This document shows positions 975 through 42,442 of a stretch of 44,138 bases of DNA, one piece after another. This DNA is from Escherichia phage vB_EcoS_XY2, in sequence record MN927226.1; one strand, written 5' to 3'. Both the position numbers and the translations under genes were made by a program. Positions within the stretch are counted from its first letter, which is position 1; each line of letters starts with the position of its first letter. The notes beneath the pieces are model-generated. The model ran no database searches. It saw only the letters and a program-made list of their open reading frames with translations, and had not been told where the DNA came from.

Positions 975-1005
975 ACTACGTCTCTCCTCTCGTTTGTGTA
1001 AATGA

Positions 1006-1034
1006 ATAGTAGCCTATTCTATCTTAGTGTGCAA
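1006..1034 (-). promoter_or_regulatory. sigma70-like promoter TTGCAC-N17-TACTAT with GAATAG-N4-CTATTC dyad
   Basis: Reverse complement reads TTGCAC, 17-bp spacer, TACTAT upstream of CDS 426..974; perfect inverted repeat 1004-1019. Confidence 0.45.
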
Positions 1035-2426: not shown

Positions 2427-2460
2427 AACCACCACTCCTCTGTCTCGTTTCGATAAGTGA

Positions 2461-2489
2461 ATAGTATCCTATTATATTGGGGTGTGCAA
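2461..2489 (-). promoter_or_regulatory. early promoter TTGCAC-N17-TACTAT (leftward operon)
   Basis: Reverse complement cttgcacaccccaatataataggatactattcac; near-identical to modules at 25334 and 34320. Confidence 0.5.
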
Positions 2490-2561
2490 GAGAATAGTTA
2501 CGTTGCCGTTGTGATTCTTCGGGGAGGGTTGTGCCTTTATTCTTATTACTTGGTAACTAAA

Positions 2562-2581
2562 GGGCAGGCTTAAGCCTGCCC
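2562..2581. terminator. perfect hairpin GGGCAGGC-TTAA-GCCTGCCC in divergent control region
   Basis: 8-bp perfect stem with 4-nt loop read directly. Confidence 0.4.
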
Positions 2582-2718
2582 AATAATCGTTACATTTTTA
2601 CGGTTGCGAATCTACGGCACATTAAGAAACAGTAGATATTTCAGCGGGTTACTTCTTTAAATGAGATTTAGATACACTTATCCTTAAACCCCAAGGCAAG
2701 CATCTCAGCTGTCTGGGA

Positions 2719-2756
2719 GGGGTTGACGAATCCCTCGGGGAGGGTTCGTCAACTCC
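2719..2756. repeat. 38-bp nested near-perfect palindrome
   Basis: GTTGACGAA/TTCGTCAAC outer arms around CCCTC-GGG-GAGGG inner arms. Confidence 0.6.
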
Positions 2757-2847
2757 GTAATATATACAAGTCCCAAAACCATTATACAAACATGTGTCAA
2801 GAACTTTCAATAACATTTTTGTAAAGATTAAATATTACAGAGATTGG

Positions 2848-2907: not shown

Positions 2908-3090
2908 ATGTCGCATTATATGACGCAGAATGAAGTAGCTGAACGTATCGGGGTGACACGTCAGACCATTAATAACTGGTTGCGCAGCGGCAAATTCCCT
3001 GACTGCTGTATTAAGGTTATGGGCCGCCGTTTACCGGGAACATTTGACCGTAATAAAGTCGAAGCATGGATTAAGGAGAACGTGAAATGA
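2908..3090 (+). CDS. small HTH DNA-binding protein (AlpA/excisionase-like, 60 aa)
   Basis: MSHYMTQNEVAERIGVTRQTINNWLRSGKFP; CAGGAGA RBS 7 nt upstream; track start 2794 lacks RBS. Confidence 0.6.
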   Translation: MSHYMTQNEVAERIGVTRQTINNWLRSGKFPDCCIKVMGRRLPGTFDRNKVEAWIKENVK

Positions 3091-3575: not shown

Positions 3576-5794
3576 ATATTGTTTTTGCAACGCTGCGTAA
3601 CACATTCGATAAAAACCCTGTAGCGCGTGAAATGCCGCTGGAGCAGTTTGTCGAGTATGTCTGCGATACATCGAAGCGTTTATCCGTGGACCCGTCATGG
3701 ACTAAGGAAGAGTACGACGCTGCCAAGATTAAACAGAAAGCTATTGCGCCTGTTGGTGGTCGCCGTAAAAACGCTATCCTGGAAGACAGTGTGGTTAAGT
3801 TCGATTTCGACCATCTCAACCGTACTCAGTACCGCGACCTGACACGCAAATTCAAGAACGCGCCGTTCTTCAATATTCTGCACACAACGGCATCGCATCA
3901 GCACGCATGTAAAAATGGAGATTACGCTTTCCGCGTTCTGGTTCCAGCTCGCACGCCGTTTAACTCTAACGACGCGTGGATGGTGCAACGTGCTATTTGT
4001 GCAGAGTTAGAAATAGACGAAGCGTTGCGCGACCACTGCACAGAAGACGGCAACCGCCTTATCTACCTGCCGCATAAAGAGTCGAAGATAACGGTTACAG
4101 AAGGGCGTGTTATCCGTGCTGAGCGGTACATCAAGAAAGCCGAAGAGATGGGGTTGCGTAAGCGTGAGGCTAAAACACTTGCCGCCGATGAGTATGGGCT
4201 TAACGCTGATATAGCGCATTTCTGCGAAGCCGAGCTTGGCCTTGACGCTTTATCTTCCGGGCGCGGGTACGAAGTGCCATGCCCTAACGAACATCTGCAT
4301 ACAGGCAAGGGCTCCACCAGCATAATGCTCGACGGTAAAGAAGTGCGCTTTGTCTGCCAGCATACAAACAACGGCGCTTGCACCGAGCTTAACCGTAGGC
4401 AGCATTTGGCCCTGCGTATGTGTGGCCTACCCGACGAGCTTAACATAGATAAGCAACCTATCAGCATTAACAGCATTCGTGCGGCTCTGCCTGATTTACC
4501 GGAAGAAGAGATTGAAGAACTACACCGCACAGAGAACGAGGACCCAGTAACTTGCAGCCTCGACGACCTGGAAGACGATGCGGAATCAGAGGAGGACGAG
4601 TTACCAGAACCGGTAAAGGCTGATTTCGTCGTTGAAGGGTACATGCCGTCGGATTGTATCTGGGATATCGTCGGGGAATCTGGCACGTACAAATCGTTCT
4701 ATACGCTGGGGATGATGTACCTCAGCGCCGCCGGGTACAGGTTTGCGGGGGCGGATACCCAGCGTTGCCACCATTTCTATATTGATGGTGAGGGTGGCGC
4801 AGCTACACGCACCCGTATTGATGCACTAGCGGCTAAATATGGCGGGGAAGGTAAAGATTATGTACACGTCATCGATATGGGCGAAGTCGGCAAACTTAAA
4901 AGCCTGATTAAGTTAATGCGCGAAACTGCTGGCGACGAGCCAATTGGCATGGTTGCGTTCGACACCCTTAACCAGACCCTGGCACTGACGATTGATAAGT
5001 TCGACGAGAACAGTTCATCAACAGCAATCGGCATGGGTAAAGTTATCGCCATTCTGAAAGAAGTACGCGATGCAACTAAAGCCGCAGTAGGCGTTGTCCA
5101 CCATACGCCGAAGGGTGGAAAGAAAGCACGCGGCAGTGGGGCGCTGTATGCGGGTGTTGACGTGGAACTGACAATCGAACGTGCAACCGACCGTCAAATA
5201 AACGTATACCACTCGAAATTTAAGCACGGTCCTCAACAGAAAACGGTTGGCATGGTGCTGGAGTCTGTGCAGTTCCGCGAAGCTCCGCCGCCGAAAGAGT
5301 ACCGTGCGGTTGAGTTCCTGGGGGGCACAGAAGAATACGGCACAATCGTAAACCTGGACCTTCCTGAACCACACAAGGCGCTTGTGTTGATGCCGTGGGG
5401 TTTCGAGCCGTTCAAAACTGACGAGGAGAAAGAGCGGGAAGAAGGGTTGACGAAAGAAGGTAAGCAAAAAGTAAAGGAAGAAGTTAAACGCGGCAGGGAT
5501 GAAGTAAGGAAGGAGTCAATACTTTCGGCACTGGAAGACCTGCAACAGTCAGATGACACAGGTCGCGGTTTTACTCAGCAGCAGATAGTGGCTCGTTCCG
5601 GTGACTTCTCTGTGACTAACACCCATCTTGATAAAATGTTGAAAGATGGAGAACTAATGCTTGGTTGCGATGCTAACGGCGAAGTAGTACCGAGAACATA
5701 TCGTATACCCGAAAGAATAGGGGATAGATTAAGGCCGAAGACACTATACGAACCAAATGAGATGCTGGTGGTGACAGAGGAGGATTTGGAATAG
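3572..5794 (+). CDS. DNA primase/helicase-like replication protein (740 aa)
   Basis: Cys/His cluster CPNEHLHTGKGS...CQHTNNGAC; Walker-A-like GESGTYKS; position at head of replication module. Confidence 0.75.
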   Translation: MNIVFATLRNTFDKNPVAREMPLEQFVEYVCDTSKRLSVDPSWTKEEYDAAKIKQKAIAPVGGRRKNAILEDSVVKFDFDHLNRTQYRDLTRKFKNAPFFNILHTTASHQHACKNGDYAFRVLVPARTPFNSNDAWMVQRAICAELEIDEALRDHCTEDGNRLIYLPHKESKITVTEGRVIRAERYIKKAEEMGLRKREAKTLAADEYGLNADIAHFCEAELGLDALSSGRGYEVPCPNEHLHTGKGSTSIMLDGKEVRFVCQHTNNGACTELNRRQHLALRMCGLPDELNIDKQPISINSIRAALPDLPEEEIEELHRTENEDPVTCSLDDLEDDAESEEDELPEPVKADFVVEGYMPSDCIWDIVGESGTYKSFYTLGMMYLSAAGYRFAGADTQRCHHFYIDGEGGAATRTRIDALAAKYGGEGKDYVHVIDMGEVGKLKSLIKLMRETAGDEPIGMVAFDTLNQTLALTIDKFDENSSSTAIGMGKVIAILKEVRDATKAAVGVVHHTPKGGKKARGSGALYAGVDVELTIERATDRQINVYHSKFKHGPQQKTVGMVLESVQFREAPPPKEYRAVEFLGGTEEYGTIVNLDLPEPHKALVLMPWGFEPFKTDEEKEREEGLTKEGKQKVKEEVKRGRDEVRKESILSALEDLQQSDDTGRGFTQQQIVARSGDFSVTNTHLDKMLKDGELMLGCDANGEVVPRTYRIPERIGDRLRPKTLYEPNEMLVVTEEDLE

Positions 5795-5803
5795 GTAAAA
5801 AGA

Positions 5804-5822
5804 AAGGGGCTTTAAGCCCCTT
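5804..5822. terminator. hairpin AAGGGGC-tttaa-GCCCCTT between converging genes
   Basis: Stem-loop read directly; T-run follows on minus strand. Confidence 0.5.
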
Positions 5823-6027
5823 CACCTAACGCCAGCCACTTGGCGTCTACTTCCAGAACTTCCGCCAGCTTGAACAGCGTCGCCGGCCGGACGTCCTGAG
5901 TTACCCCGAGCGCAAGCTGGTTAATCGCGCCCTGGGAAACGCCAGCCAGGACCGCCAGACGGCGCTGGGAGATGCCGAGTTCTTTACGGCGTTGTTCTAC
6001 GCGGATACCTAGTTCAGATGGTTGCAT
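5812..6027 (-). CDS. XRE/Cro-CI-type HTH transcriptional regulator (71 aa)
   Basis: LGISQRRLAVLAGVSQGAINQLALG HTH motif; solo minus-strand gene divergent from 6152 operon. Confidence 0.75.
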   Translation of the reverse strand: MQPSELGIRVEQRRKELGISQRRLAVLAGVSQGAINQLALGVTQDVRPATLFKLAEVLEVDAKWLALGEGA

Positions 6028-6091
6028 GTCAATTACTCCTTAGTCAGTTGATATGTGAATAGTACCATATTAATTATTTTAGAAAAGCCCA

Positions 6092-6120
6092 TTGACATGT
6101 GAATAGTTCGCTATTATAGT
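6092..6120 (+). promoter_or_regulatory. sigma70 promoter TTGACA-N17-TATAGT with GAATAG-N4-CTATTA dyad in spacer
   Basis: Consensus -35, 17-bp spacer; dyad 6101-6116; second degenerate box 6057-6072. Confidence 0.6.
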
Positions 6121-6151
6121 TAACCCATACCAAACGAGAGGAGAGAAACAA

Positions 6152-6652
6152 ATGTTAGAGAAATTCTTAGTATTGCTGGAACGTTTCGTAGTTGCACATG
6201 AACTGATTGCCGCGAACAGTGCGAAACAAGTTGTTCAGGTTGCCGCGCCGCTGGAAGTAGAGACTGTATCGTACACCAAAGAAGCGGTAGCTGAGTGCGC
6301 TGAAGAAGCAACAAAAGAAATCCCGGTAGAAGGTGAAGACATCGTTGACACTAAACCGGCAGAAGAAGAGAAGCCAAAACGCAAGCCGCGTAAAGCTAAA
6401 GTAGAGGAAACGACGCCAGAGCCGGAAGAAGAGAAAGAAGAAGTAGACTATAAGTCTCTGCGCGACCAGATTCAGGCTATCGACGATGCAATTAACGAAG
6501 GTCCGAGCGATGCCGCGTGCGATGATTCTGATGAACTGCTGGAAGAGTTCACAGGTAAGAAAATGAAGATTGCAGCGATTAAAGACGAAGACCTGGCTGA
6601 ATACCTGGAACGCTTGACAGCAATCAAGAACAAGTATTTCGAAGAAGAATAA
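6152..6652 (+). CDS. highly acidic early protein (166 aa)
   Basis: ORF track; strong RBS; E/D-rich composition. Confidence 0.7.
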   Translation: MLEKFLVLLERFVVAHELIAANSAKQVVQVAAPLEVETVSYTKEAVAECAEEATKEIPVEGEDIVDTKPAEEEKPKRKPRKAKVEETTPEPEEEKEEVDYKSLRDQIQAIDDAINEGPSDAACDDSDELLEEFTGKKMKIAAIKDEDLAEYLERLTAIKNKYFEEE

Positions 6653-8380: not shown

Positions 8381-8409
8381 TTGACACCTGAATAGTTAGC
8401 TATTATAGT
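8381..8409 (+). promoter_or_regulatory. sigma70 promoter TTGACA-N17-TATAGT with GAATAG-N4-CTATTA dyad
   Basis: Same architecture as 6092-6120; upstream of CDS 8464. Confidence 0.6.
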
Positions 8410-9109: not shown

Positions 9110-9132
9110 AAGGCCCTTCATTGGGCCTTTTT
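9110..9132 (+). terminator. Rho-independent terminator AAGGCCC-ttcatt-GGGCCTT then TTTTT
   Basis: Hairpin plus T-tract after stop of 8464..9090. Confidence 0.65.
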
Positions 9133-9149: not shown

Positions 9150-11351
9150 ATGAGTTACCTGTTCTTAGACTTTGAAACATTCTCAGAAGCCGATTTGAAG
9201 AAAGTCGGTTCTTACGCTTACGCCGAACACCCGTCAACCGAAGTGCTTATCTGTACATATGCTTTTGACGACGAACCTGTGCGGGTATGGGATTGCACCG
9301 ACGGCAGCGACATGCCGGGGGATTTACACCGCGCACTGCGCCGCCTTGTTAAGCCCAACAGCCGCATCAAGATGGTGTGGCACAACGGTGGACTTTTCGA
9401 TCGCCTAATCATGAAACACTGCTGGGACTTTGATATTCCGGTAAGTAACACCATTGATACTATGATTTGGGCGTTCCGCCACGCGCTGCCGGGTTCTCTT
9501 GATGCGCTGTGCGAAGTGCTGGGCGTGTCTGCAGACAACGCGAAAGATAAACGCGGCAAGGCTCTGATTAAGCGTTTCTCTAAACCGACGCCGAAGAACT
9601 ACAAAATCCGCCGCTACACCGCAGAAACTCACCCTGACGAGTGGGCGATGTTCATCAGGTACGCCGTGAGCGACATCACTGCGATGCGTGAAGTCTTCCA
9701 TAAGCTGCCGCGTTGGGGTAACTCCGAGTTCGAAGACCGTGTACTGGAACTTGACCAGTTAATCAACGACCGCGGATTTAAGGTTGACGTCGCACTGGCG
9801 GAAGCCGCGATTGAAGCCGTAGAGAAGCACAAGGCACAGTTACAGGAAGAAGCTCAACGTAAATACGGCGGCTCGCTTACCGGTAAAGACTTCCTTCCGA
9901 TTCTGCGTGAACTTTCGCCCGCGCACCGCATACACAATGCACAGAAGTCGACGCTTAACGACCTGTTGGCAGATGATGATTTACCGGACGACGCCCGGAT
10001 GATTATCGAAATGCGCCTCGGGGCCGCGTCAACAGCGTCAACGAAATATACCCCGCTGCTGTTGGGCCGCTCGTCGGACGACCGCCGTCGTGGTTGCTTG
10101 CAGTACGGCGGAGCGAAACGTACTCTGCGATGGGCGGGTAAAGGATTCCAGCCGCAGAACCTGGCGCGAGGTTACTATCACGATGATGAACTGGATAAAG
10201 GCATTTCAGCGTTACTTAAGGGTCGAGCGCATCGCCGTTTTGATGTAGCCAAGCTAACAGCATCTACGGTTCGTAGCTGCATTATCCCGGAAGCGGGGTA
10301 TAAGTTTGTCGTTGCCGATTACTCTAACGTTGAAGGCCGTGGTTTAGCGTGGCTGGCCGGAGAAGAAACCGCGCTCGATACGTTCCGCGCCGGACTGGAT
10401 ATTTACTGCGTAACCGCAGGTAAGATGTTCGGCATGGACCCCGATGACATTAAGAAAAACTTCAAGGAAATCAGACAGATAGGCAAGGCTTGCGAGCTTG
10501 GCCTCGGCTATGAAGGCGGCGTCGGAGCGTTCGTTACGTTCGCCAAAAACTTAGGTCTTGACCTTATTGAGATGGCAAAAACAATGGACGGTACATTCCC
10601 CGACCACATCTGGTCAGCCACCGCGAGAGGATATGAATGGGCGCGCATCCAGGAAGCCAAGCGCCCCCCGCATCCAGGTGAAAAGGACGACAGGCCATCA
10701 TATATTCTTGATAAAAAAGTATGGCGTACTTGTGACGCTATCAAGCGTATGTGGCGCGAGTCACACCCGGAAACAGTAGCGTTCTGGCGCGACCTTAAAG
10801 ATGGAATTTTAGCCGCTGTGCGTAATCCTGGTCGTGAATTTTGGGCGGGGGCACACTTGCGCAGAAATGGGGAAAGGGCTATCCGCATATGGCGTACTGT
10901 AGAATTTGATTCATCCGGTAGGAAGGTTCCGGGTTGGTGGTTGTGTATGGAGTTGCCGTCTGGCCGTATCCTCTCGTATCCGGGAATCGGGGTTAGTGTG
11001 ACAAAGGAAACAGATGAAGACGGACGGGTGAACACGAATGTGCGAATCAAGTATCAAGGTGAAAACCAGTTAACCCGCCAATGGACTACCCTGTACACAC
11101 ACGGCGGCAAAGCCTGCGAAAACATTGTTCAGGCGCTGTGCCGGGATTTACTCGCATATGCGATGATTAAGGTTGAGGATGGCGGGTATCCCATCGTGCT
11201 TTCGGTACACGATGAACTGGTGTGCGAAACTCCAGATACGCCGGAATACAGTGTGGCTGAACTGGAACGATTGATGTGCGCGTTGCCTGAGTGGGCAGAA
11301 GGCTTCCCTCTTGTAGCGGAAGGTAGCGAAATGTACAGATATGCTAAATGA
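9150..11351 (+). CDS. family-A DNA polymerase with N-terminal 3'-5' exonuclease domain
   Basis: N-terminal FLDFETFS exonuclease motif; 733-aa ORF. Confidence 0.8.
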   Translation: MSYLFLDFETFSEADLKKVGSYAYAEHPSTEVLICTYAFDDEPVRVWDCTDGSDMPGDLHRALRRLVKPNSRIKMVWHNGGLFDRLIMKHCWDFDIPVSNTIDTMIWAFRHALPGSLDALCEVLGVSADNAKDKRGKALIKRFSKPTPKNYKIRRYTAETHPDEWAMFIRYAVSDITAMREVFHKLPRWGNSEFEDRVLELDQLINDRGFKVDVALAEAAIEAVEKHKAQLQEEAQRKYGGSLTGKDFLPILRELSPAHRIHNAQKSTLNDLLADDDLPDDARMIIEMRLGAASTASTKYTPLLLGRSSDDRRRGCLQYGGAKRTLRWAGKGFQPQNLARGYYHDDELDKGISALLKGRAHRRFDVAKLTASTVRSCIIPEAGYKFVVADYSNVEGRGLAWLAGEETALDTFRAGLDIYCVTAGKMFGMDPDDIKKNFKEIRQIGKACELGLGYEGGVGAFVTFAKNLGLDLIEMAKTMDGTFPDHIWSATARGYEWARIQEAKRPPHPGEKDDRPSYILDKKVWRTCDAIKRMWRESHPETVAFWRDLKDGILAAVRNPGREFWAGAHLRRNGERAIRIWRTVEFDSSGRKVPGWWLCMELPSGRILSYPGIGVSVTKETDEDGRVNTNVRIKYQGENQLTRQWTTLYTHGGKACENIVQALCRDLLAYAMIKVEDGGYPIVLSVHDELVCETPDTPEYSVAELERLMCALPEWAEGFPLVAEGSEMYRYAK

Positions 11352-12230: not shown

Positions 12231-12559
12231 CTAAAGAGGGCCGCATCCAGAAATACGCAAAAGAGCGATTCGAGGCCATTGGTGGCCTCGTTCGTAAACT
12301 TTCCTACGAAGGACGTTCAGGCGCTCCTGACCTGCTGGCAATTCTACCCGGCGGCATCGTCTGGTTCGTCGAGGTGAAGAAAGACGAAAACACTAAGCCA
12401 GACCCGCACCAGCTACGGGAACACGAGCGTATACGTAAACGTGGCGCAAATGTTTTTGTCGTTGGTTCGATAAAACAGATTGACACCCTAATAGCAGACT
12501 ATTATAGTAAGCACATACCCCAACAATATAAGGAATTTAGAAATGAAACACGAATATGA
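12227..12559 (+). CDS. VRR-NUC domain nuclease
   Basis: GAPDLLAILPGGIVWFVEVKK core read as VRR-NUC. Confidence 0.7.
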   Translation: MTKEGRIQKYAKERFEAIGGLVRKLSYEGRSGAPDLLAILPGGIVWFVEVKKDENTKPDPHQLREHERIRKRGANVFVVGSIKQIDTLIADYYSKHIPQQYKEFRNETRI

Positions 12560-15083: not shown

Positions 15084-15103
15084 AAGGCCCCAAACGGGGC
15101 CTT
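15084..15103. terminator. bidirectional terminator AAGGCCCC-aaac-GGGGCCTT
   Basis: Perfect 8-bp stem between converging plus module and tailspike gene. Confidence 0.7.
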
Positions 15104-25333: not shown

Positions 25334-25362
25334 TTGCGCGCCCCAATATAATAGGGTACTAT
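25334..25362 (+). promoter_or_regulatory. early-type promoter TTGCGC-N17-TACTAT for plus-strand island
   Basis: ttgcgcgccccaatataatagggtactattca; near-identical to 34320-34350. Confidence 0.55.
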
Positions 25363-25390
25363 TCACCAGTAACTTACTGAGGGTATAATT

Positions 25391-25717
25391 ATGCGTAAAT
25401 TAGTATTAGCTCTGGGGTTTATGTCTTTTGCTACTTTTGGAGCCCCGTGCGAACAGGTATTTAGTGAATCTGTTCTTATGACTTCTGGTGTGCTCGAGAA
25501 AGCCGACCCTACTATTGTAAAGGCGTTCAAGGACTCTACAGTTCGCGAGTGTGAGGCCGCCGTGGAGGTTGGTAAATCGGGCCTACCCCCGCAGGCCGTA
25601 ACCTACACAGTGATACGTTCGGTAGAGAAAAACGGAGATGCTTTCTATAGCCTACTGACAGCCACCCGTCTGCAAATGGTAATGACAGGGTGGGCGATAG
25701 GCGCAGAAAGTAAATAG
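25391..25717 (+). CDS. secreted/periplasmic protein (108 aa)
   Basis: N-terminal MRKLVLALGFMSFATFGAP signal-like segment, two Cys; GAGGG RBS. Confidence 0.65.
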   Translation: MRKLVLALGFMSFATFGAPCEQVFSESVLMTSGVLEKADPTIVKAFKDSTVRECEAAVEVGKSGLPPQAVTYTVIRSVEKNGDAFYSLLTATRLQMVMTGWAIGAESK

Positions 25718-25782
25718 TTGCCTTTATTTAAAGGAATCCACTGTGGTTAAATAGGACAAATCCTAAACACGAGGAAGTAAGC

Positions 25783-26913
25783 ATGGCCCAGAAGAAAATA
25801 ACCGACGAACAGTTACAGGAAGAATTGAACGCCGGGATGAAGAATGTAGACATCGCCCGTAAATACGGCATCTCAGACCGAGTTATTCGTATCCGTAAAG
25901 CGAAGCTGGCTAAGAAAGGTGTAGGCCACGGGCGTGACGTTAGCCACCTTGTCCCAGACGGCTACAAGATTAAAGGGACGTCGTCTCTGGTAGACGAGTT
26001 CGGCAATACTAAGTTGCAATGGGTTAAGACAGACACCGACGCTGAACGTCAGGTCGAGTTGATGAAAGCCGTGATTGAAGGCATGAAGTCAGAGATTACG
26101 CCAGTTGCGCCGGCTAAAGCGACTCGAGCCAAACGCGACGACAAGCTACTCAATCTTTACACGGTATCTGATTTCCATCTCGGTATGCTTGCCTGGGCCG
26201 ACGAGAGCGGCGACGACTGGGATATAAAGATTGCGGAAGACCTGTTCTCTCGTTGGTTCGACGCGGCGTTTCAGAAAGCACCGGATGCAGGAACAGGAGT
26301 TATTAACCTGCTGGGTGATTTCGCGCACTTCGATAGTCTGGATGCCGTTACACCTGAGTCGCGTCACGTGTTGGACGCAGACACTCGCTACCAGAAACTC
26401 GTCCGCTACATGATTCGTATGGTACGCCGTGTTGTAGATATGGCACTGGTTAAACATAAAAATGTTCGCTTGCTTATCGTACAGGGGAACCATGACCCTG
26501 TAGGCTCTGTATGGCTGGCTGAAATGTTCACAGTTTTATATTCGAACGACAGCCGAGTGATTGTCGATACGTCGCCGGATGTTTACAAGATGGTGCAACA
26601 CGGAAAAACGACGTTGTTCTTTCACCACGGGCATAAGGCGCGATTCGATGCTATCGAACCGGTTATGATTGCCAAGTTCCGCAAAGCGTTCGGTGAGAGT
26701 GTTTACAGCTACGCCCACGTAGGCCACCTGCACCACCAGAAGATTGTAGAAAGCCGTAACATGATTGTTGAGCAACACCGCACCTTAGCGGCGAAAGACG
26801 CCTACGCCTCGCGCGGCGGATGGATGTCAGGCCGTAGTGCAAATGTAATTACTTATAGCGCCGAATATGGCGAGGTCGCACGTTTAACTATTTCACCGGA
26901 GATGCTGGGATGA
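25783..26913 (+). CDS. HTH domain fused to calcineurin-like metallophosphoesterase
   Basis: Ordered motifs SDFHLG, LLGDFAHFD, VQGNHDP, FFHHGH, HVGHLHH after an HTH-like N-terminus. Confidence 0.75.
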   Translation: MAQKKITDEQLQEELNAGMKNVDIARKYGISDRVIRIRKAKLAKKGVGHGRDVSHLVPDGYKIKGTSSLVDEFGNTKLQWVKTDTDAERQVELMKAVIEGMKSEITPVAPAKATRAKRDDKLLNLYTVSDFHLGMLAWADESGDDWDIKIAEDLFSRWFDAAFQKAPDAGTGVINLLGDFAHFDSLDAVTPESRHVLDADTRYQKLVRYMIRMVRRVVDMALVKHKNVRLLIVQGNHDPVGSVWLAEMFTVLYSNDSRVIVDTSPDVYKMVQHGKTTLFFHHGHKARFDAIEPVMIAKFRKAFGESVYSYAHVGHLHHQKIVESRNMIVEQHRTLAAKDAYASRGGWMSGRSANVITYSAEYGEVARLTISPEMLG

Positions 26914-27140
26914 CTTCAAAATACAACCGAACAATGACAAACACTCACGGCAGCACTATGACCGTAGACGTTTACGATGTTCTCCGTGCCTTCGACATCC
27001 GTGACCCCGCACTACAGCACGCATTGAAGAAGTTATTGTGCATGGGTCTTCGCGGGCATAAGGACACCGGAACCGACTTAGCAGAAGCAATTGAAAGTCT
27101 GGAGAAGTTACGGGAGTATCGAAGTAATATTGATGAGTGA
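26910..27140 (+). CDS. hypothetical protein (76 aa)
   Basis: ORF track; ATGA overlap with upstream stop. Confidence 0.55.
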   Translation: MTSKYNRTMTNTHGSTMTVDVYDVLRAFDIRDPALQHALKKLLCMGLRGHKDTGTDLAEAIESLEKLREYRSNIDE

Positions 27141-27143
27141 GAA

Positions 27144-27165
27144 AAAGGCCCCTTTCGGGGCCTTT
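27144..27165. terminator. bidirectional terminator AAAGGCCCC-tttc-GGGGCCTTT
   Basis: Perfect 9-bp stem between island end and major tail gene stop. Confidence 0.7.
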
Positions 27166-34044: not shown

Positions 34045-34251
34045 GCTAGTCCTTATCATTTAAACATAGAAACGGCGTAATCTCAGTAAACCAGTTACTT
34101 TTTACACAAGCAATAGAGTATGGCCCTTCCGAACGCGTCAGCGTAACTACACTCAGGACTTACGTCCAGCTCCGTTACCTGCCCGCGCCGCGGTCGCTTG
34201 TTCATACTTCACAAGCTCAGGTGGAGCTTAGCACATTTTTAGTGAAAAGTC

Positions 34252-34267
34252 AACTATTCGAATAGTT
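34252..34267. repeat. perfect 16-bp palindrome AACTATTCGAATAGTT
   Basis: Read directly, about 55 bp upstream of promoter 34320. Confidence 0.6.
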
Positions 34268-34319: not shown

Positions 34320-34348
34320 TTGCGCACCCCAATATAATAGGGTACTAT
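34320..34348 (+). promoter_or_regulatory. early-type promoter TTGCGC-N17-TACTAT for DnaN-like gene
   Basis: ttgcgcaccccaatataatagggtactatcca; near-identical to 25334-25364. Confidence 0.55.
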
Positions 34349-34375
34349 CCAGTTAACTTAAACAGGAGATGAGAA

Positions 34376-34901: not shown

Positions 34902-34921
34902 AAGGCCCCTTACGGGGCCTT
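34902..34921. terminator. bidirectional terminator AAGGCCCC-ttac-GGGGCCTT
   Basis: Perfect 8-bp stem right after stop of 34376..34897. Confidence 0.7.
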
Positions 34922-35386: not shown

Positions 35387-36462
35387 TAATCCCCTTTCAG
35401 ATAATCAGCAACACGTTTATCGAGTTCCGCCATCTGCTTAAGCGTGAGCGGATTCCCGAAACCATCTACAGATATTACGCGAAACTCTTCCGGCGATATA
35501 CCGCTGTTACGGAAAATCTTACCGCGAACAGGACCGAGCGCCTGGTCCTGAAACCATGCTGGTTGTTGTTTCAGGAACTCGTAATAGGTGGTGTCCGCGC
35601 TTACCTGAGTACCGCCGTCCGCACCCTTAGCCGCACGTTTTGCGCCTTTATCAAGGAAGTCGAACTCTGAACTGATTACCGGTGCAGTGGTACTTCGGCA
35701 ATTAGGATGGGCTGGTGGCATCGGACCTTTACCGATTTCCCACGTCATTCCGTCTCTGGCCCTGCAAATCGTGCTGGTACGGCTGTCCAAAGTTGACACC
35801 CACTCATATTTCTCGATGATGTCGTCGTTCTGGCGGTACGTCTCGTTACGGGCCTCGTTGGATACGTGGGACAGCGCGGTGCGGATTACCGTAGTCGCGT
35901 TACGTTCTGAGATGTCGGCTAGCCCACCAGCGCCAACAACATTCTTAACAATCTGCCGTGTGGTTTGACCTTGCACAAAGCCCATCTTAACTCCAGTTAC
36001 AAGACGTGCTACTTCCGTTTCACCCCAGCCGTCCATCAGCTTAGTGAAATCAACGGGCTTGTCGCTCAATGATAATGGTTGAAACTCGGCAGCGGCCCAT
36101 ACCTGCTCAGCGGTAGGCGTAACAAATTCCGCGTCTACGTTGGCGGTCAGTGTCTTTACGTTCCACTCAGCCTCGTACGCCGCCAGTTCCTTAAGGTCGT
36201 CTGTTAGCTTTGTTTGCCAGTCACCCGTAATACCGGTTAGTGCTTCTTCCAGGTCGCGTAACAGTTTATTCAGTCGCGCAGTGCTGCGACCGTCGTCACC
36301 GAATAACAGCACCTGCCGTTTGATTTCATCCCTTATCTCCTGAATGAACGGCGTGAGGTCTTTCACTTCACCGGATGCGGTGCGTTGCAGCCATATCTGA
36401 TGGCTGATTAGGGATGTAAGTAAGCTCATAGATAAACCCTGTGGCGCTAAAGTTAATAGCAT
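35386..36462 (-). CDS. head morphogenesis / minor head protein
   Basis: 358-aa ORF immediately after portal gene. Confidence 0.6.
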   Translation of the reverse strand: MLLTLAPQGLSMSLLTSLISHQIWLQRTASGEVKDLTPFIQEIRDEIKRQVLLFGDDGRSTARLNKLLRDLEEALTGITGDWQTKLTDDLKELAAYEAEWNVKTLTANVDAEFVTPTAEQVWAAAEFQPLSLSDKPVDFTKLMDGWGETEVARLVTGVKMGFVQGQTTRQIVKNVVGAGGLADISERNATTVIRTALSHVSNEARNETYRQNDDIIEKYEWVSTLDSRTSTICRARDGMTWEIGKGPMPPAHPNCRSTTAPVISSEFDFLDKGAKRAAKGADGGTQVSADTTYYEFLKQQPAWFQDQALGPVRGKIFRNSGISPEEFRVISVDGFGNPLTLKQMAELDKRVADYLKGD

Positions 36463-36498
36463 ACTATAAGAAAGCCCCTTTCGGGGCTATAGGTGAAC

Positions 36499-37980
36499 TT
36501 ACTGCTGAGTGGTGTCCTGTTGCTGCGCCGACTGCGGAATCTCTCCCGCTACCTGAGCAACAGAACCCAACGGCAGAGGTGCGTCTTCAATAGCGTTCTG
36601 AATGTCCTCATCTGTCCAGTCAGTCACACCTGCCTTGCGCAACGCAGCATAGTAAGCGGTGGCGGGTAGCAGGCCAGCGTTAATATCCGCCATCCACTGA
36701 GCGCGGTCCTGAGCTGTCATAGGTTGCAGGAAGAATTCCATATTCAGCTTGAACTCAATCTCAGTATCTTCACTAAGCCCAAGCATACCCGCAACCCAGC
36801 GCAACGCATCGGTATACGCCATGCTTACATTACGTGCTATTGTTGCCATGACTGACGTGTCGGCGCCGCGTTGCAGGCGGGCCGATTCCGCGGTGATTTG
36901 CTGCGTCGGGGTGATAAGCTGCGCGCCAATCTGGATGGCCTGATTCTCTTTATCCAGCATATTCTGTTTGGCGAGGTTAGTTTCCGCCGCCTGAACCAGA
37001 AACGCATTTCCGCCGGAGCCGATGTTGTGGCCTGAACGCGACCCCATGCGTATGCCGTGTGGGTTGGCTTCTTTCCACTGCTCCATGCTCATGTTCTCGC
37101 CGGGGGCAATGAACAGTGTCGGTTGACCTACTATAAAGCTGGCCTCTTCCACATCGGCCGAATTTCTGAAGTGTCCTATATTTAGCTCAGCTAACGGCAG
37201 TAAAGGCGCATCGTCTATAGTGGCGTCGTTGTTGCTTGCGCCAATGAACGTGAACGGGATTTTACCGCGCAACTGTTCGCCGAGTTCCGGGAAGATTTCG
37301 ATTACTTCATCCTGTGCGCCACCTTCGGCATCGAAGCGGTAGATGCGCTGGCGGTAGCGACCGTCAATCAGGTCAAGGACGCGGTATTGCTCGCCGAATT
37401 TTGTTTCAAACTCAGCGCCTGGTTCCGAGTATTCCCATGCCTCACGCAATACAACCATCGTCACGCGGTTCACTGAACCGATGCGGGTGAGTCTCCAGTT
37501 GATAATGTTCTCCGCGGTATAGAATGCGATTACCGGGTTTAATAATCCCGCGTTCTGCTCTGCCGCCGTTGCTGCGGCTGTTTCCGGGGCGTCCACCAGC
37601 AACCCGCCACGGCCTATCGAGTTAATCTCCATCAGCGTATCCTGCGCGTGCTGCCACAGCCCGACACCTGAACCGTCAGCGTTGTGCAACAGGTACTCAA
37701 GTTCAGGCGGGATAATCTGCTCAGGGTCTTTGCGCATCACTGACCCAGTCATCCCCGCCAGCGTGCGTTTGGTGAAATTGTAGCAGATAGCGCCGTTCTC
37801 GTATTCTTCCTGTCGCTGTGCTGCGTAGGTCTGGTCAGGCTCGTTCTTCCCGACGTTGCGCAGATAGCGGATAAGGTCGCCTTCAAGAGCGTGGCGTACC
37901 TTCTGCCATTTATCGAAGTGATGCAGCCATTCCCGGTGTTTTGTCTTAACACCCTGATTCTGACCGTTCATAGTTAACAT
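36499..37980 (-). CDS. portal protein
   Basis: 493-aa ORF immediately after terminase large subunit; AAGAGGA RBS. Confidence 0.8.
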   Translation of the reverse strand: MLTMNGQNQGVKTKHREWLHHFDKWQKVRHALEGDLIRYLRNVGKNEPDQTYAAQRQEEYENGAICYNFTKRTLAGMTGSVMRKDPEQIIPPELEYLLHNADGSGVGLWQHAQDTLMEINSIGRGGLLVDAPETAAATAAEQNAGLLNPVIAFYTAENIINWRLTRIGSVNRVTMVVLREAWEYSEPGAEFETKFGEQYRVLDLIDGRYRQRIYRFDAEGGAQDEVIEIFPELGEQLRGKIPFTFIGASNNDATIDDAPLLPLAELNIGHFRNSADVEEASFIVGQPTLFIAPGENMSMEQWKEANPHGIRMGSRSGHNIGSGGNAFLVQAAETNLAKQNMLDKENQAIQIGAQLITPTQQITAESARLQRGADTSVMATIARNVSMAYTDALRWVAGMLGLSEDTEIEFKLNMEFFLQPMTAQDRAQWMADINAGLLPATAYYAALRKAGVTDWTDEDIQNAIEDAPLPLGSVAQVAGEIPQSAQQQDTTQQ

Positions 37981-41806: not shown

Positions 41807-41835
41807 AATATAATAGGGTCATAGATAATAGTCAA
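41807..41835 (-). promoter_or_regulatory. sigma70-like promoter TTGACT-N17-TATATT
   Basis: Read on minus strand; spacer contains CCCTATTA element. Confidence 0.45.
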
Positions 41836-41856
41836 CTAGTCATCGCAGAAAATAGA

Positions 41857-41889
41857 TAAAAAAAATCCCGGCTGGGTCAGGGCCGGGAT
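41857..41889 (-). terminator. Rho-independent terminator after lysis cassette
   Basis: ATCCCGGC/GCCGGGAT stem followed on minus strand by 8 T. Confidence 0.7.
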
Positions 41890-41953
41890 AAAACTGGAGA
41901 GCAGAGGGATGGAACAGGAGGTGACTTAAGTATCGTCTGATTAGTCCTAAGTG

Positions 41954-42442
41954 TCAACCTTTCACCGCGCGCCCGATAGCCTCTGCCTCCTGCCACGGTT
42001 TACCGTCGAACAGCGCCAGACGACCAGCTGTACGGCGGCGCAGGCCGAGTAATGGTTTGCCGTTCTGGTTGATGAACAACGCCAGCTTAGCCCGCAGCGT
42101 CGCAACATCACCGGAACGCAGTGCCTTACCCGTACCGGTGGCAGCGGCAATCACACCAGCACCAGCGTTATAGACCAGGTCGCACACTGCATCGAACTGT
42201 GCCTGTGTCAGGGAGTGGTGTGCCGCTGCGTCAACCGCAGCTACGGCCTTAGCCATATCACGATTCAGTAACAGGAGTCCCTGACCCTTCGTAATCTTCT
42301 GCCCTTCATACACATGAGGGCCGTAGCTTCCGTAGCCAATAGTAAGGTACTTCTCGTTCGGCGTAGCACGATACGCAGTTCCACGGAACCCCTCGAATGC
42401 AGCGGTAAAATGCAATCCATTATCTGAAATGTTTCGAGACAC
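41954..42442 (-). CDS. endolysin (T4-lysozyme-like, GH24)
   Basis: FEGFRGTAYR...YLTIGYG and TQAQFDAVCDLVYNAGAG motifs; GTG start 42442 with GGAGG RBS. Confidence 0.8.
   Translation of the reverse strand: MSRNISDNGLHFTAAFEGFRGTAYRATPNEKYLTIGYGSYGPHVYEGQKITKGQGLLLLNRDMAKAVAAVDAAAHHSLTQAQFDAVCDLVYNAGAGVIAAATGTGKALRSGDVATLRAKLALFINQNGKPLLGLRRRTAGRLALFDGKPWQEAEAIGRAVKG

What the first reader, a model, noticed from the sequence alone, without database searches (positions are those of the whole stretch)
2459..2489. Conserved ~33-bp promoter module reused for the leftward early operon and both plus-strand islands
Near-identical sequences TTGC(G/A)C-[G/A]CCCCAATATAATAGG(G/A)TAC-TAT(T/C)CA occur at 2459-2489 (minus), 25334-25364 (plus) and 34320-34350 (plus), with a diverged copy at 1004-1034 (minus). 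Each sits 25-35 bp upstream of a first gene and reads as -35 TTGCRC, 17-bp spacer, -10 TACTAT. This implies the two islands are co-regulated with early genes. The conserved spacer suggests more than sigma70 recognition, for example a regulator site.
Basis: seen in the sequence. Interest (0 to 1): 0.5.

Follow-up and report, generated by a model that had tools for sequence, protein, structure and literature searches.

The report
Phage promoter cassette with embedded operator
The repeated 32-bp sequence is real: it is a host-type promoter of a Kagunavirus coliphage carrying a short palindrome, probably a repressor site, that recurs at most other promoters of the genome, and the motif has already been reported in related phages.

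Summary
Three near-identical 32-bp copies lie at 2458-2489(-), 25334-25365(+) and 34320-34351(+), with a diverged fourth at 1003-1034(-). None is expected by chance. Each reads TTGCRC-17 bp-TACTAT and ends 24-31 nt before a start codon.

The window is a Kagunavirus (Guernseyvirinae), about 95% identical to BASEL phages Bas75/76.

The conserved core is not the whole spacer. It is a 14-bp inverted repeat, AATAG-N4-CTATT (18 bp with flanks), overlapping the -10.

- The same palindrome sits inside three strong TTGACA-17-TATAGT promoters of the rightward replication genes (6092, 8381, 12480).
- Weakened copies lie upstream of a 71-aa HTH gene and over the -35 of two late-type promoters.
- Its distance from the -35 varies (4, 7 or 10 nt), so it behaves as an operator rather than as a polymerase contact.

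The best candidate binder is the 71-aa protein, whose closest solved relative is phage 434 Cro. This is inferred, not shown.

The motif is already published as a PHIRE "phage promoter" in fBC-Eco01 and SGP-C. fBC-Eco01 ascribes it to a phage RNA polymerase, but this window encodes none.

Both islands are moron-like cassettes: module, variable gene(s), shared terminator. Interest is modest.

The parts
2458..2489 (-). Class A promoter cassette A1: -35 TTGCAC 2489-2484, 17-bp spacer, -10 TACTAT 2466-2461, palindrome AATAGGATACTATT 2473-2460. Heads the leftward operon of small early genes (first ATG 2426).
   Evidence: conserved in 29 related loci
1003..1034 (-). Class A promoter cassette A2, the diverged copy with spacer ACTAAGATAG and a perfect palindrome at 1005-1018. 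It is an internal promoter before the 182-aa gene 426-974.
25334..25365 (+). Class A promoter cassette I1, with a perfect palindrome at 25350-25363. Heads plus-strand island 1: a 108-aa gene, a 376-aa metallophosphoesterase/DNA-repair-exonuclease-like gene, and a 76-aa gene.
   Evidence: orthologous module in about 45 Kagunavirus loci with three different downstream sequences
34320..34351 (+). Class A promoter cassette I2, with the palindrome at 34336-34349 (one mismatch, CTATC). Heads plus-strand island 2: a 173-aa gene, phrog_3007, annotated as sliding-clamp-like in fBC-Eco01.
6092..6120 (+). Class B promoter B1: TTGACA-17-TATAGT with the palindrome AATAGTTCGCTATT (6102-6115) in the spacer/-10. 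Heads the rightward operon starting at 6152.
8381..8409 (+). Class B promoter B2: TTGACA-17-TATAGT with the palindrome at 8391-8404. Lies upstream of the Gp2.5-like SSB gene (8464) and the DNA polymerase gene.
12480..12508 (+). Class B promoter B3: TTGACA-17-TATAGT with the palindrome at 12490-12503. Lies upstream of the 12543.. methylase/helicase block.
6058..6071 (-). Degenerate palindrome (AATATGGTACTATT on the minus strand) in the divergent control region, 31 nt upstream of the HTH_3 gene. A candidate autoregulatory, weaker operator.
   Evidence: invariant in 40 loci; annotated as PHIRE promoter PP5 in fBC-Eco01
5812..6027 (-). 71-aa HTH_3 (Xre/Cro-type) protein, the best candidate for the palindrome-binding regulator.
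   Evidence: Pfam HTH_3 E 2.3e-12; closest solved structure is phage 434 Cro, 71 aa, E 2e-6, nearly full length; clade-level co-occurrence with the palindrome
2908..3090 (+). 60-aa HTH_17 (excisionase/MerR-like) protein, the alternative candidate regulator. Its own promoter, TTGCTT-17-TATACT at about 2849-2877, lacks the palindrome.
   Evidence: no homologue in Tsm2, which keeps the palindrome
41807..41840 (-). Class C promoter: TTGACT (41835-41830)-17-TATATT, with the one-mismatch palindrome ACTAGTTGACTATT over the -35. Follows the post-lysis terminator and heads the operon running into the terminase and structural genes.
   Evidence: Jerseyvirus has AATAGTTGACTAGT at the same place
34225..34258 (-). 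Class C promoter: TTGACT (34253-34248)-17-TAAGCT, with the one-mismatch palindrome AATAGTTGACTTTT over the -35. Points leftward toward the spanin, scaffold and capsid genes.
   Evidence: annotated as 'Host promoter1' in fBC-Eco01
27146..27163 (.). Bidirectional terminator module AGGCCCC-N4-GGGGCCT closing island 1.
34903..34920 (.). Bidirectional terminator module AGGCCCC-N4-GGGGCCT closing island 2. The same module lies at 15085-15102, at the end of the rightward replication operon.

Best explanation
The 32-bp element is a portable promoter-operator cassette of a Kagunavirus.

Host sigma70 RNA polymerase would use TTGCRC as the -35 and TACTAT, 17 bp downstream, as the -10. Transcription would start about 7 nt further on, giving a leader of roughly 25-30 nt. 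All of this is inferred from geometry.

A 14-bp inverted repeat, AATAG-N4-CTATT (18 bp with flanks: ATAATAG-N4-CTATTCA), overlaps the -10 and the start site. This repeat is the feature common to at least eight, and probably ten, promoters of the genome.
- In the four class A cassettes it starts 10 nt after the -35.
- In the three TTGACA-17-TATAGT promoters of the replication genes it is in reverse orientation, 4 nt after the -35.
- In two late-type promoters an imperfect copy covers the -35 itself.

Because it always lies inside the core promoter but in different registers, it most likely acts as an operator: a dimeric protein bound there would exclude RNA polymerase.

The most likely binder is the phage's own 71-aa, 434-Cro-like HTH protein (5812..6027). 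Its gene sits in a divergent control region with one perfect and one weakened copy of the site. That arrangement would allow shut-off of early and middle transcription plus autoregulation.

The near-identity of three of the cassettes, including the CCCCAATAT spacer, reflects copying of the cassette within Kagunavirus. There it forms the conserved 5' junction of exchangeable gene cassettes closed by a shared terminator.

Shown: the repeats, their geometry, their conservation and their distribution. Inferred: promoter use, protein binding, the identity of the binder and the direction of regulation.
For: - Non-random repeats: the module has 3 exact pattern matches against 0 expected. The palindrome has 13 matches at one mismatch or fewer against 1.28 expected.
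- All strong sites lie 24-70 nt upstream of start codons.
- Class B promoters score 11/12 to the sigma70 consensus and carry the same palindrome in reverse orientation.
- The palindrome is kept at positionally homologous promoters in Jerseyvirus TUMS_E4 and Serratia phage Tsm2, while the intervening spacer differs. The Jerseyvirus island promoter has it 7 nt from the -35, with TATTAT as the -10.
- In about 40 Kagunavirus loci the half-sites, the -35 and the -10 are invariant or nearly so. N4 and the bases between the -35 and the palindrome vary.
- The 71-aa protein is Pfam HTH_3. Its best PDB match is 434 Cro, of the same length. From my own knowledge, 434 operators are also 14-bp dyads.
- Tsm2 has no HTH_17 homologue but keeps both HTH_3 and the palindrome.
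- Lineages whose HTH_3 recognition helix begins VSQ (Kagunavirus, Jerseyvirus, Tsm2) have 2-5 perfect sites per 20 kb. Lineages with VTQ/MTQ (Cornellvirus-like VSiA, SE1, L240-L244) have none.
- No ORF of 400 aa or more has an RNA polymerase domain, and none is annotated in Bas75 or fBC-Eco01.
- Cassette behaviour: identical modules are followed by different first genes in different isolates. The same terminator module lies at both island ends.
Against: - No transcript 5' ends or binding data exist for any member of the subfamily.
- The class A hexamers are weak by consensus (TTGCAC 3/6, TACTAT 4/6; in Jerseyvirus the -35 is TGGCGC).
- A perfect TATAAT (YATAAT across genera) lies in the 'spacer' of class A. 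This could mean a different -10 assignment.
- The co-occurrence of helix type and palindrome rests on only two or three independent evolutionary events.
- Tsm2 has no recognisable palindrome next to its own HTH_3 gene.
- HTH_3 is only 51% identical between Kagunavirus and Jerseyvirus and differs at three recognition-helix positions, although the core site is the same.
- A repressor site on late promoters as well is awkward for a simple early-to-late switch.
Confidence: 0.55

Rival explanations
1. The palindrome is an operator, but for a different protein: the 60-aa HTH_17 excisionase/MerR-like protein (2908..3090), or a host transcription factor that the phage exploits.
For: HTH_17 is far more conserved between Kagunavirus and Jerseyvirus (82%) than HTH_3 (51%), matching the identical core site in both genera. 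Its own promoter lacks the palindrome, as expected for an upstream regulator. The SGP-C authors speculated it could act as a cI/Cox-like switch protein (PMC8790156).
Against: Serratia phage Tsm2 keeps perfect palindromes at a class A and at class B promoters but has no HTH_17 homologue by tblastn at E<=1. The spacers are the optimal 17 bp, not the 19-20 bp of MerR-type promoters. I could recall no E. coli regulator consensus with this half-site and spacing (OxyR ATAG-N7-CTAT and the ARG box TGAAT-N4-ATTCA differ); that is from memory and was not tested. The motif tracks phage lineage, not host: Salmonella Cornellvirus-like phages lack it while Salmonella Jerseyviruses have it.
Confidence: 0.2
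2. There is no separate regulator. The conserved bases are intrinsic promoter determinants for host RNA polymerase (-10, extended or discriminator contacts, AT-rich spacer). The near-identity of three copies is simply recent duplication or gene conversion of a good promoter.
For: Each palindrome half overlaps a -10-like hexamer (TATAAT, TACTAT, TATTAT or TATAGT). Three copies share even the non-palindromic CCCCAATAT spacer, and only within Kagunavirus, which looks like copying. The modules flank exchangeable genes.
Against: In class B the upstream half-site AATAG lies at about -25..-21, where sigma70 makes no base-specific contact, yet it is invariant across genera. The palindrome shifts by 3-bp steps relative to the -35/-10 (4, 7, 10 nt), which does not fit a fixed polymerase contact. 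Dyad symmetry is maintained while N4 varies. Weakened copies sit over -35 elements and next to the HTH gene.
Confidence: 0.15
3. Class A is an activator-dependent (middle-type) promoter. The true -10 is the perfect TATAAT inside the 'spacer', and TTGCRC-N-CCCC immediately upstream is an activator or appropriator site rather than a -35.
For: YATAAT directly before AATAG is kept in Kagunavirus, Jerseyvirus and Tsm2 class A promoters. The TTGCRC hexamer is a poor -35 and is TGGCGC in Jerseyvirus.
Against: The first T of TATAAT is often C. No conserved -35 lies 16-18 bp upstream of it. TTGCRC is always exactly 17 bp from TACTAT. YAT-AATAG is also explained as the extended half-site, mirrored by CTATT-AT in class B.
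Confidence: 0.07
4. The motif is a promoter for a phage-encoded RNA polymerase, as labelled for the same sequences in the fBC-Eco01 paper and GenBank record.
For: PHIRE detects it as the dominant repeated 20-mer. It is published as 'Phage RNAP promoter PP1-PP7', consensus tgAATAGTa-ccTATTat-T (PMC9825357; record OM272052).
Against: No RNA polymerase domain is found in any window ORF of 400 aa or more, and none is annotated in Bas75, fBC-Eco01, fTaEco03 or TUMS_E4. The motif is a palindrome, occurs in both orientations relative to the downstream genes, and is nested inside canonical sigma70 -35/-10 pairs.
Confidence: 0.02

Closest known systems
Lambdoid Cro/repressor-operator systems, especially phage 434 Cro (71 aa) and P22 C2/Cro
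   Same: A small Xre/HTH_3 protein whose best solved match is 434 Cro. Dyad-symmetric 14-18 bp sites overlap the core of sigma70 early promoters. The divergent control region next to the regulator gene holds a strong and a weaker site.
   Different: No CI-type repressor with a cleavable domain, integrase or attP is annotated in the four relatives' records I read. The sites are single and scattered over eight to eleven promoters of the whole genome, including gene islands inside the structural module and late-type promoters, rather than tripartite OL/OR clusters. The half-site sequence (AATAG) is unrelated to 434 (ACAA). Binding is untested.
PHIRE 'phage-specific promoters/regulatory elements' reported for Guernseyvirinae (fBC-Eco01 PP1-PP7; SGP-C TAATAGTACCCTATTATGTT; Golestan, seven elements)
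   Same: It is the same sequence element at homologous positions. fBC-Eco01 PP2, PP3, PP6 and PP7 correspond to the island, A1 and A2 cassettes here, and PP5 to the site upstream of the HTH gene.
   Different: Those reports list 20-mers without noting the dyad symmetry, the surrounding -35/-10, the two orientations or a candidate binding protein. fBC-Eco01 ascribes them to a phage RNA polymerase that the genome does not encode.
Morons of lambdoid phages (promoter + gene + terminator inserted between late genes; Juhala et al. 2000, from my own knowledge)
   Same: Both plus-strand islands are autonomous units inside the head/tail gene block, each with its own promoter at the 5' end and a strong terminator at the 3' end. 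Their cargo varies between isolates.
   Different: Classic morons carry their own assorted promoters and are typically expressed from the prophage. Here the units use a phage-wide standard promoter-operator cassette and a standard terminator. The cargo includes DNA-metabolism genes, and the phage is described as virulent.
PeSL (promoter-early stem-loop) mobile regulatory cassettes of T4-type phages (Arbiol et al. 2010, from my own knowledge)
   Same: A repeated, nearly identical early-promoter module marks the junctions of exchangeable small-gene cassettes and probably provides homology for shuffling.
   Different: PeSLs combine the promoter with a stem-loop in one unit and have no operator palindrome. 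Here the promoter and terminator modules are separate and the promoter embeds a dyad site. Recombination at the module is inferred only from comparative data.

Membership tests
sigma70-dependent bacterial/phage promoter | -35-like and -10-like hexamers separated by 17 +/- 1 bp, with TA...T kept in the -10 | tested here: met
   TTGCRC-17-TACTAT occurs four times and only at these sites. The hexamers match consensus 3/6 and 4/6. The class B relatives match 11/12.
sigma70-dependent bacterial/phage promoter | Located upstream of a transcription unit with a leader and ribosome-binding site | tested here: met
   The modules end 24-31 nt before an ATG preceded by a GGAG-type RBS. A terminator lies upstream of A1 (2581-2562).
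sigma70-dependent bacterial/phage promoter | Transcripts start 5-9 nt downstream of the -10 | not testable with these tools
   No 5'-end data exist for any Guernseyvirinae phage in the searched literature. The K1B4 RNA-seq gives gene-level counts only.
Cro/Xre-type repressor operator (434/P22-like) | Dyad-symmetric site of about 14-18 bp | tested here: met
   AATAG-N4-CTATT has 6 exact and 7 one-mismatch copies against 1.28 expected. The dyad is kept while N4 varies.
Cro/Xre-type repressor operator (434/P22-like) | Site overlaps the core promoter, so that binding excludes RNA polymerase | tested here: met
   By my calculation from the hexamer positions, the palindrome centre lies at about -12.5 (class A), -18.5 (class B), -15.5 (Jerseyvirus island) and -33.5 (class C).
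Cro/Xre-type repressor operator (434/P22-like) | Cognate small HTH_3 protein encoded by the same genome, adjacent to operators | tested here: met
   The 71-aa HTH_3 protein is 434-Cro-like. Its gene abuts the region holding sites 6058 and 6102.
Cro/Xre-type repressor operator (434/P22-like) | Specific binding of the protein to the site, and repression | not testable with these tools
   Only indirect evidence: clade-level co-occurrence of recognition-helix type and palindrome.
Cro/Xre-type repressor operator (434/P22-like) | Part of a lysis-lysogeny switch with a CI-type repressor and integration functions | tested here: not met
   No integrase or CI-like gene is annotated in Bas75, fBC-Eco01, fTaEco03 or TUMS_E4. 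So it works like a Cro operator but is not a lambdoid immunity region.
Phage-RNA-polymerase promoter (published label) | Genome encodes its own RNA polymerase | tested here: not met
   No RNA polymerase Pfam domain is found in any ORF of 400 aa or more, and none is annotated in relatives.
Moron / mobile regulatory cassette | Own promoter and own terminator flanking cargo inserted in a late operon, with cargo variable between relatives | tested here: met
   Class A module at the 5' end and the AGGCCCC-N4-GGGGCCT terminator at the 3' end of both islands. Three different sequences follow the identical island-1 module across about 45 loci. Island-2 cargo differs in Bas75, fBC-Eco01 and K1B4.

The most novel reading that the evidence does not exclude
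A siphovirus marketed and used as 'strictly virulent' carries a complete single-repressor circuit. One Cro-like protein would have operators embedded in essentially every promoter class of the genome (early, replication, moron and late), in several registers. This would serve for temporal shut-off and could also, in principle, silence the whole genome. That would give a mechanistic basis to the disputed report of immune, possibly episomal 'lysogens' of a Jerseyvirus-like phage (SGP-C, PMC8790156). The same promoter-operator cassette would double as the recombination junction through which new genes plug into the regulon.
Probability: 0.25. Interest if true: 0.55.

Novelty: new member of a known kind. 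Interest (0 to 1): 0.3.

Why it matters
Kagunavirus and Jerseyvirus phages are popular therapy, biocontrol and synthetic-biology chassis, and Bas70-76 are now BASEL reference phages. Their transcription programme is nevertheless essentially unstudied.

- **A first wiring diagram.** The published 'phage promoters' appear to be sigma70 promoters sharing one palindromic operator, probably for the Cro-like protein. That gives a testable set of about ten promoters, one candidate regulator and ready-made portable promoter and terminator parts.
- **A literature correction.** It removes a mis-annotation (a phage RNA polymerase that does not exist).
- **A safety question.** It raises whether a genome-wide repressor circuit could support a repressed carrier state.

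None of this is conceptually new biology: operator-controlled phage promoters and morons are textbook.

Tried and rejected
- **Phage RNA polymerase promoter.** Rejected: no RNA polymerase domain in any large ORF and none annotated in relatives.
- **Antisense promoter in the class A cassette.** The minus-orientation reading resembles class B (TCGATA-17-TATATT at 2450-2478). Rejected as a general feature, because the -35-like hexamer is absent from the island copies and weakened in fBC-Eco01.
- **Per-column conservation across about 40 Kagunavirus loci.** Only weakly informative: the whole intergenic regions are conserved at this divergence. The cross-genus comparisons were more useful.
- **A replacement palindrome in Cornellvirus-like phages (VSiA, SE1), to demonstrate covariation.** No clearly repeated dyad was found, only recurrent TATTAGT/ACTAAT words. 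The covariation argument therefore stays at presence/absence level.
- **Scan of IMG/VR for ATAATAG-N4-CTATTCA.** Multi-copy loci were the 41-45 kb Kagunavirus-type contigs. It gave no evidence for the motif in other phage groups.
- **Rfam scan of the window.** No hits.
- **K1B4 RNA-seq paper and supplements.** No per-gene temporal table or 5' ends. Timing classes are unreliable: sampling ran to 120 min with a 30-min latent period, and phage reads reached at most 8.9%.
- **Literature search for TSS or transcriptome data on Jerseyvirus/Jerseyvirinae.** Nothing usable.
Full report
**1. Identity of the window**

The first 8 kb match Escherichia phages AnnaReinhart_Bas75 and VerenaMeyer_Bas76 at about 95% identity, and several hundred Kagunavirus and Jerseyvirus records more distantly. 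The window is therefore a complete or near-complete genome of a Kagunavirus (Guernseyvirinae), in reverse orientation relative to Bas75.

The gene layout is as follows.
- Minus strand: small early genes, lysis genes, terminase, head and tail genes.
- Plus strand: a replication block at about 2.9-15 kb (HTH_17, helicase-primase, nuclease, Gp2.5-like SSB, DNA polymerase, methylase, SNF2 helicase).
- Two short plus-strand islands sit inside the structural block.

**2. The observation**

- A degenerate 32-mer matches exactly at 2458-2489(-), 25334-25365(+) and 34320-34351(+), with zero matches in 100 shuffles (read directly).
- The diverged copy is at 1003-1034(-).
- TTGCRC-N17-TACTAT occurs only at these four places, against 0.49 expected.
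- The modules end 24-31 nt before start codons that have good ribosome-binding sites.

**3. What the conserved core is**

A relaxed scan with the 3' half of the module also hit 6056-6070, 6100-6114 and 8389-8403 on the opposite strand. Those positions lie inside three near-consensus promoters, TTGACA-17-TATAGT, at 6092, 8381 and 12480 on the plus strand.

Read side by side:
- class A is YATAATAG-N4-CTATTCA;
- class B is TGAATAG-N4-CTATTATAGT.

These are the same 18-bp imperfect palindrome in opposite orientation. The core AATAG-N4-CTATT occurs 6 times exactly and 7 times with one mismatch, against 1.28 expected.

The exact or near-exact copies are:
- the four class A cassettes;
- the three class B promoters;
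- a site 31 nt upstream of the 71-aa HTH gene (6058-6071);
- two sites in which the palindrome straddles a TTGACT -35 on the minus strand, at 41827-41840 and 34245-34258. Each heads a unit running into late genes.

A further one-mismatch copy at 36455-36468 follows the terminator between the portal and head-morphogenesis genes. I could not assign it a role.

**4. Register**

The distance from the -35 hexamer to the palindrome differs by class.
- Class B: 4 nt, with -10 = TATAGT, overlapping the right flank.
- Class A: 10 nt, with -10 = TACTAT, made of the last two N4 bases plus CTAT.
- Orthologous island promoter of Jerseyvirus: 7 nt, TTGCAT-AACCGTT-AATAGTGGCCTATTAT, with -10 = TATTAT.

In every case a plausible -10 lies exactly 17 bp from a TTG-hexamer, so the promoter geometry is maintained while the palindrome slides in 3-bp steps. 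In class B the upstream half-site lies at about -25..-21, where sigma70 holoenzyme makes no sequence-specific contacts (textbook knowledge).

This argues that the palindrome is a module of its own that has to overlap the core promoter. That is the signature of a repressor operator. It does not fit a polymerase recognition element, an upstream activator site, or a MerR-type site, which needs 19-20 bp spacers.

**5. Conservation**

In about 40 Kagunavirus contigs from IMG/VR and four complete genomes, the half-sites, the -35 and the -10 are invariant or nearly so. N4 and the bases between the -35 and the palindrome vary.

Across genera the palindrome persists at homologous promoters.
- Jerseyvirus TUMS_E4: TGGCGCaaccaaacatAATAGGGTACTATT before the early operon, plus class B and class C equivalents.
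- Serratia phage Tsm2: TTGCGTtatgtggcatAATAGAATACTATT.

It is ACTAAGATAG in A2, AACCAAACAT in Jerseyvirus and TATGTGGCAT in Tsm2. The near-identity of A1, I1 and I2 is therefore best read as copying of one cassette within Kagunavirus. The functionally constrained parts are the -35, the palindrome and the -10.

**6. Who binds?**

The window encodes two small HTH proteins.
- The 71-aa protein (5812..6027, minus) is Pfam HTH_3. Its best match among all solved structures is phage 434 Cro, also 71 aa, aligned over nearly its full length (E 2e-6). The 434 repressor and P22 C2 follow. From my own knowledge, 434 operators are 14-bp dyads.
- The 60-aa protein (2908..3090, plus) is HTH_17, excisionase/MerR-like.

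Three comparative observations favour the first.
- (i) Its gene lies in the divergent control region, which contains one perfect operator (6102-6115, inside rightward promoter B1) and one weakened operator (6058-6071).
- (ii) Tsm2 has no HTH_17 homologue but keeps HTH_3 and perfect palindromes.
- (iii) Recognition-helix type and palindrome content co-occur:

| HTH_3 recognition helix | Lineage | Perfect palindromes |
|---|---|---|
| GVSQGAINQLAL | Kagunavirus | 3-5 per ~20 kb |
| GVSQSLITHLAT | Jerseyvirus, 11 loci | 2-4 per ~20 kb |
| GVSQGMLNHLRG | Tsm2 | 3 per 40 kb |
| GVTQSAISHLCC | Cornellvirus-like, six genomes | none |
| GMTQGGIGHIVT | L240 | none |

There are caveats. This represents only two or three independent events. 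Tsm2 has no palindrome next to its own HTH_3 gene. The Kagunavirus and Jerseyvirus helices differ at three positions although the core site is identical. I therefore treat 'operator for the Cro-like protein, acting as repressor' as the most likely mechanism (about 0.55), not as shown.

**7. The islands**

Island 1 (25391-27140) encodes:
- a 108-aa protein of unknown function;
- a 376-aa metallophosphoesterase (phrog_704 'DNA repair exonuclease');
- a 76-aa protein.

Island 2 encodes a 173-aa phrog_3007 protein, annotated as 'DNA polymerase III sliding clamp' in fBC-Eco01.

Each island begins with a class A cassette and ends with the same bidirectional terminator, AGGCCCC-N4-GGGGCCT (27146, 34903). 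That terminator also closes the rightward replication operon at 15085.

Across relatives the identical island-1 cassette is followed by at least three unrelated first sequences. One of these is an Imm-type superinfection-immunity gene, seen directly in K1B4 and annotated in fBC-Eco01 and fTaEco03. Island-2 cargo also differs: Bas75 has a 67-aa gene, while fBC-Eco01 and K1B4 each have two separate head-region units with a class A cassette. Even A1 has a different first gene in K1B4.

The cassette is thus the conserved 5' junction of exchangeable, moron-like units. The set is wider than 'the leftward early operon', however.

**8. What is already known**

The motif is in the literature.
- The fBC-Eco01 paper lists seven PHIRE 'Phage RNAP promoters', for example PP1 TGAATAGTACCCTATTATAT and PP5 TGAATAGTACCATATTAATT, with consensus tgAATAGTa-ccTATTat-T. 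They are annotated in GenBank OM272052 at positions homologous to the sites here (PMC9825357).
- The SGP-C paper reports the PHIRE element TAATAGTACCCTATTATGTT in a Jerseyvirus-like phage. It speculates about its Cro-like ORF49 and HTH_17 ORF46, and claims immune, possibly episomal lysogens (PMC8790156).
- The Golestan paper reports seven PHIRE promoters (PMC7203180).

In the passages I read, none notes the dyad symmetry, the enclosing sigma70 hexamers, the two orientations or the link to the Cro-like protein.

The 'phage RNA polymerase' attribution is contradicted by gene content.

Only one transcriptome of a congener exists (K1B4; PMC12645636).
- It classes an HTH gene among only four 'early' genes.
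- It classes the superinfection-immunity gene as 'late', together with DNA polymerase and the methylases. I infer this is the island-1 first gene.
- Sampling ran to 120 min with a 30-min latent period, and phage reads reached at most 8.9%. These classes therefore say little about promoter timing.

**9. Verdict**

This is a real, strongly non-random feature.

It is a new, uncharacterised member of a well-known kind: sigma70 phage promoters with a Cro/Xre-type operator, and moron cassettes. The motif itself has been published before. Interest is modest (0.3).

The most novel reading still open is a genome-wide single-repressor circuit in a phage regarded as strictly virulent, possibly able to silence the genome (probability about 0.25).

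Noticed in passing
window 2556-2810 (-): A near-consensus sigma70 promoter without the palindrome (TTGAAA-18-TATAAT, 2810-2781) is followed about 220 nt later by a strong terminator (2581-2562). No ORF starts after the predicted transcription start. The RNA folds much better than shuffles (z = -4.35), including a long hairpin at about 2715-2760. There is no Rfam match. In the fBC-Eco01 record the same unit is 'Host promoter3' plus a terminator with no CDS between. It is a candidate phage small RNA just upstream of cassette A1.
   Followed up: partly
window 15085-15102, 27146-27163, 34903-34920 (and degenerate 9111-9128): A repeated bidirectional terminator module, AGGCCCC-N4-GGGGCCT, lies at every convergent junction between plus- and minus-strand units (4 matches against 0.15 expected). 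Together with the class A cassette it frames the islands as standardised plug-in units.
   Followed up: partly
window 36455-36468 (minus-strand reading TATAGTATGCTATT): A one-mismatch copy of the palindrome lies immediately after the terminator between the portal and head-morphogenesis genes. It is conserved in Kagunavirus and Jerseyvirus, but no convincing -35/-10 surrounds it. Its role is unknown; it could be a remnant of a moron junction or a stand-alone operator. In fBC-Eco01 a class A moron sits at this very junction.
   Followed up: no
window 984-995 (-), 6132-6143 (+), about 2436-2451 (-): The leaders downstream of cassettes A2 and B1 share an exact AAACGAGAGGAG. A1 has AAACGAGACAGAGGAG, and Jerseyvirus and Tsm2 have similar GAAACGAGA leaders. 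This is a conserved 5'-UTR/RBS element common to otherwise different promoters.
   Followed up: partly
window 41860-41970 (-): TTGACA-17-GATACT at about 41955-41927 (minus) lies at the end of the lysis block. About 40-95 nt downstream is a strong terminator (CCCGGC...GCCGGG followed by a T-run). Together they would make a very short transcript just upstream of the late-type promoter at 41840. I did not examine it further.
   Followed up: no
L043 (VSiA) 37000-37300; L109 (SE1) 3745-4115; L044 (Tsm2) 9560-10150: In Cornellvirus-like phages and Tsm2, HTH_3 and helicase-primase are co-oriented, HTH_17 is missing, and the 300-600 bp non-coding gap before the early operon is filled with G-rich repeats (GGGGGAG...) or CGGAA-containing repeats. 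It may be an origin or another regulatory region.
   Followed up: no
window 2715-2760 and 2515-2530: The motif TCGGGGAGGGTT occurs twice, at about 2519 and about 2745. The second copy is part of a long inverted repeat, GGTTGACGAA...TTCGTCAACC, inside the candidate small-RNA unit.
   Followed up: no
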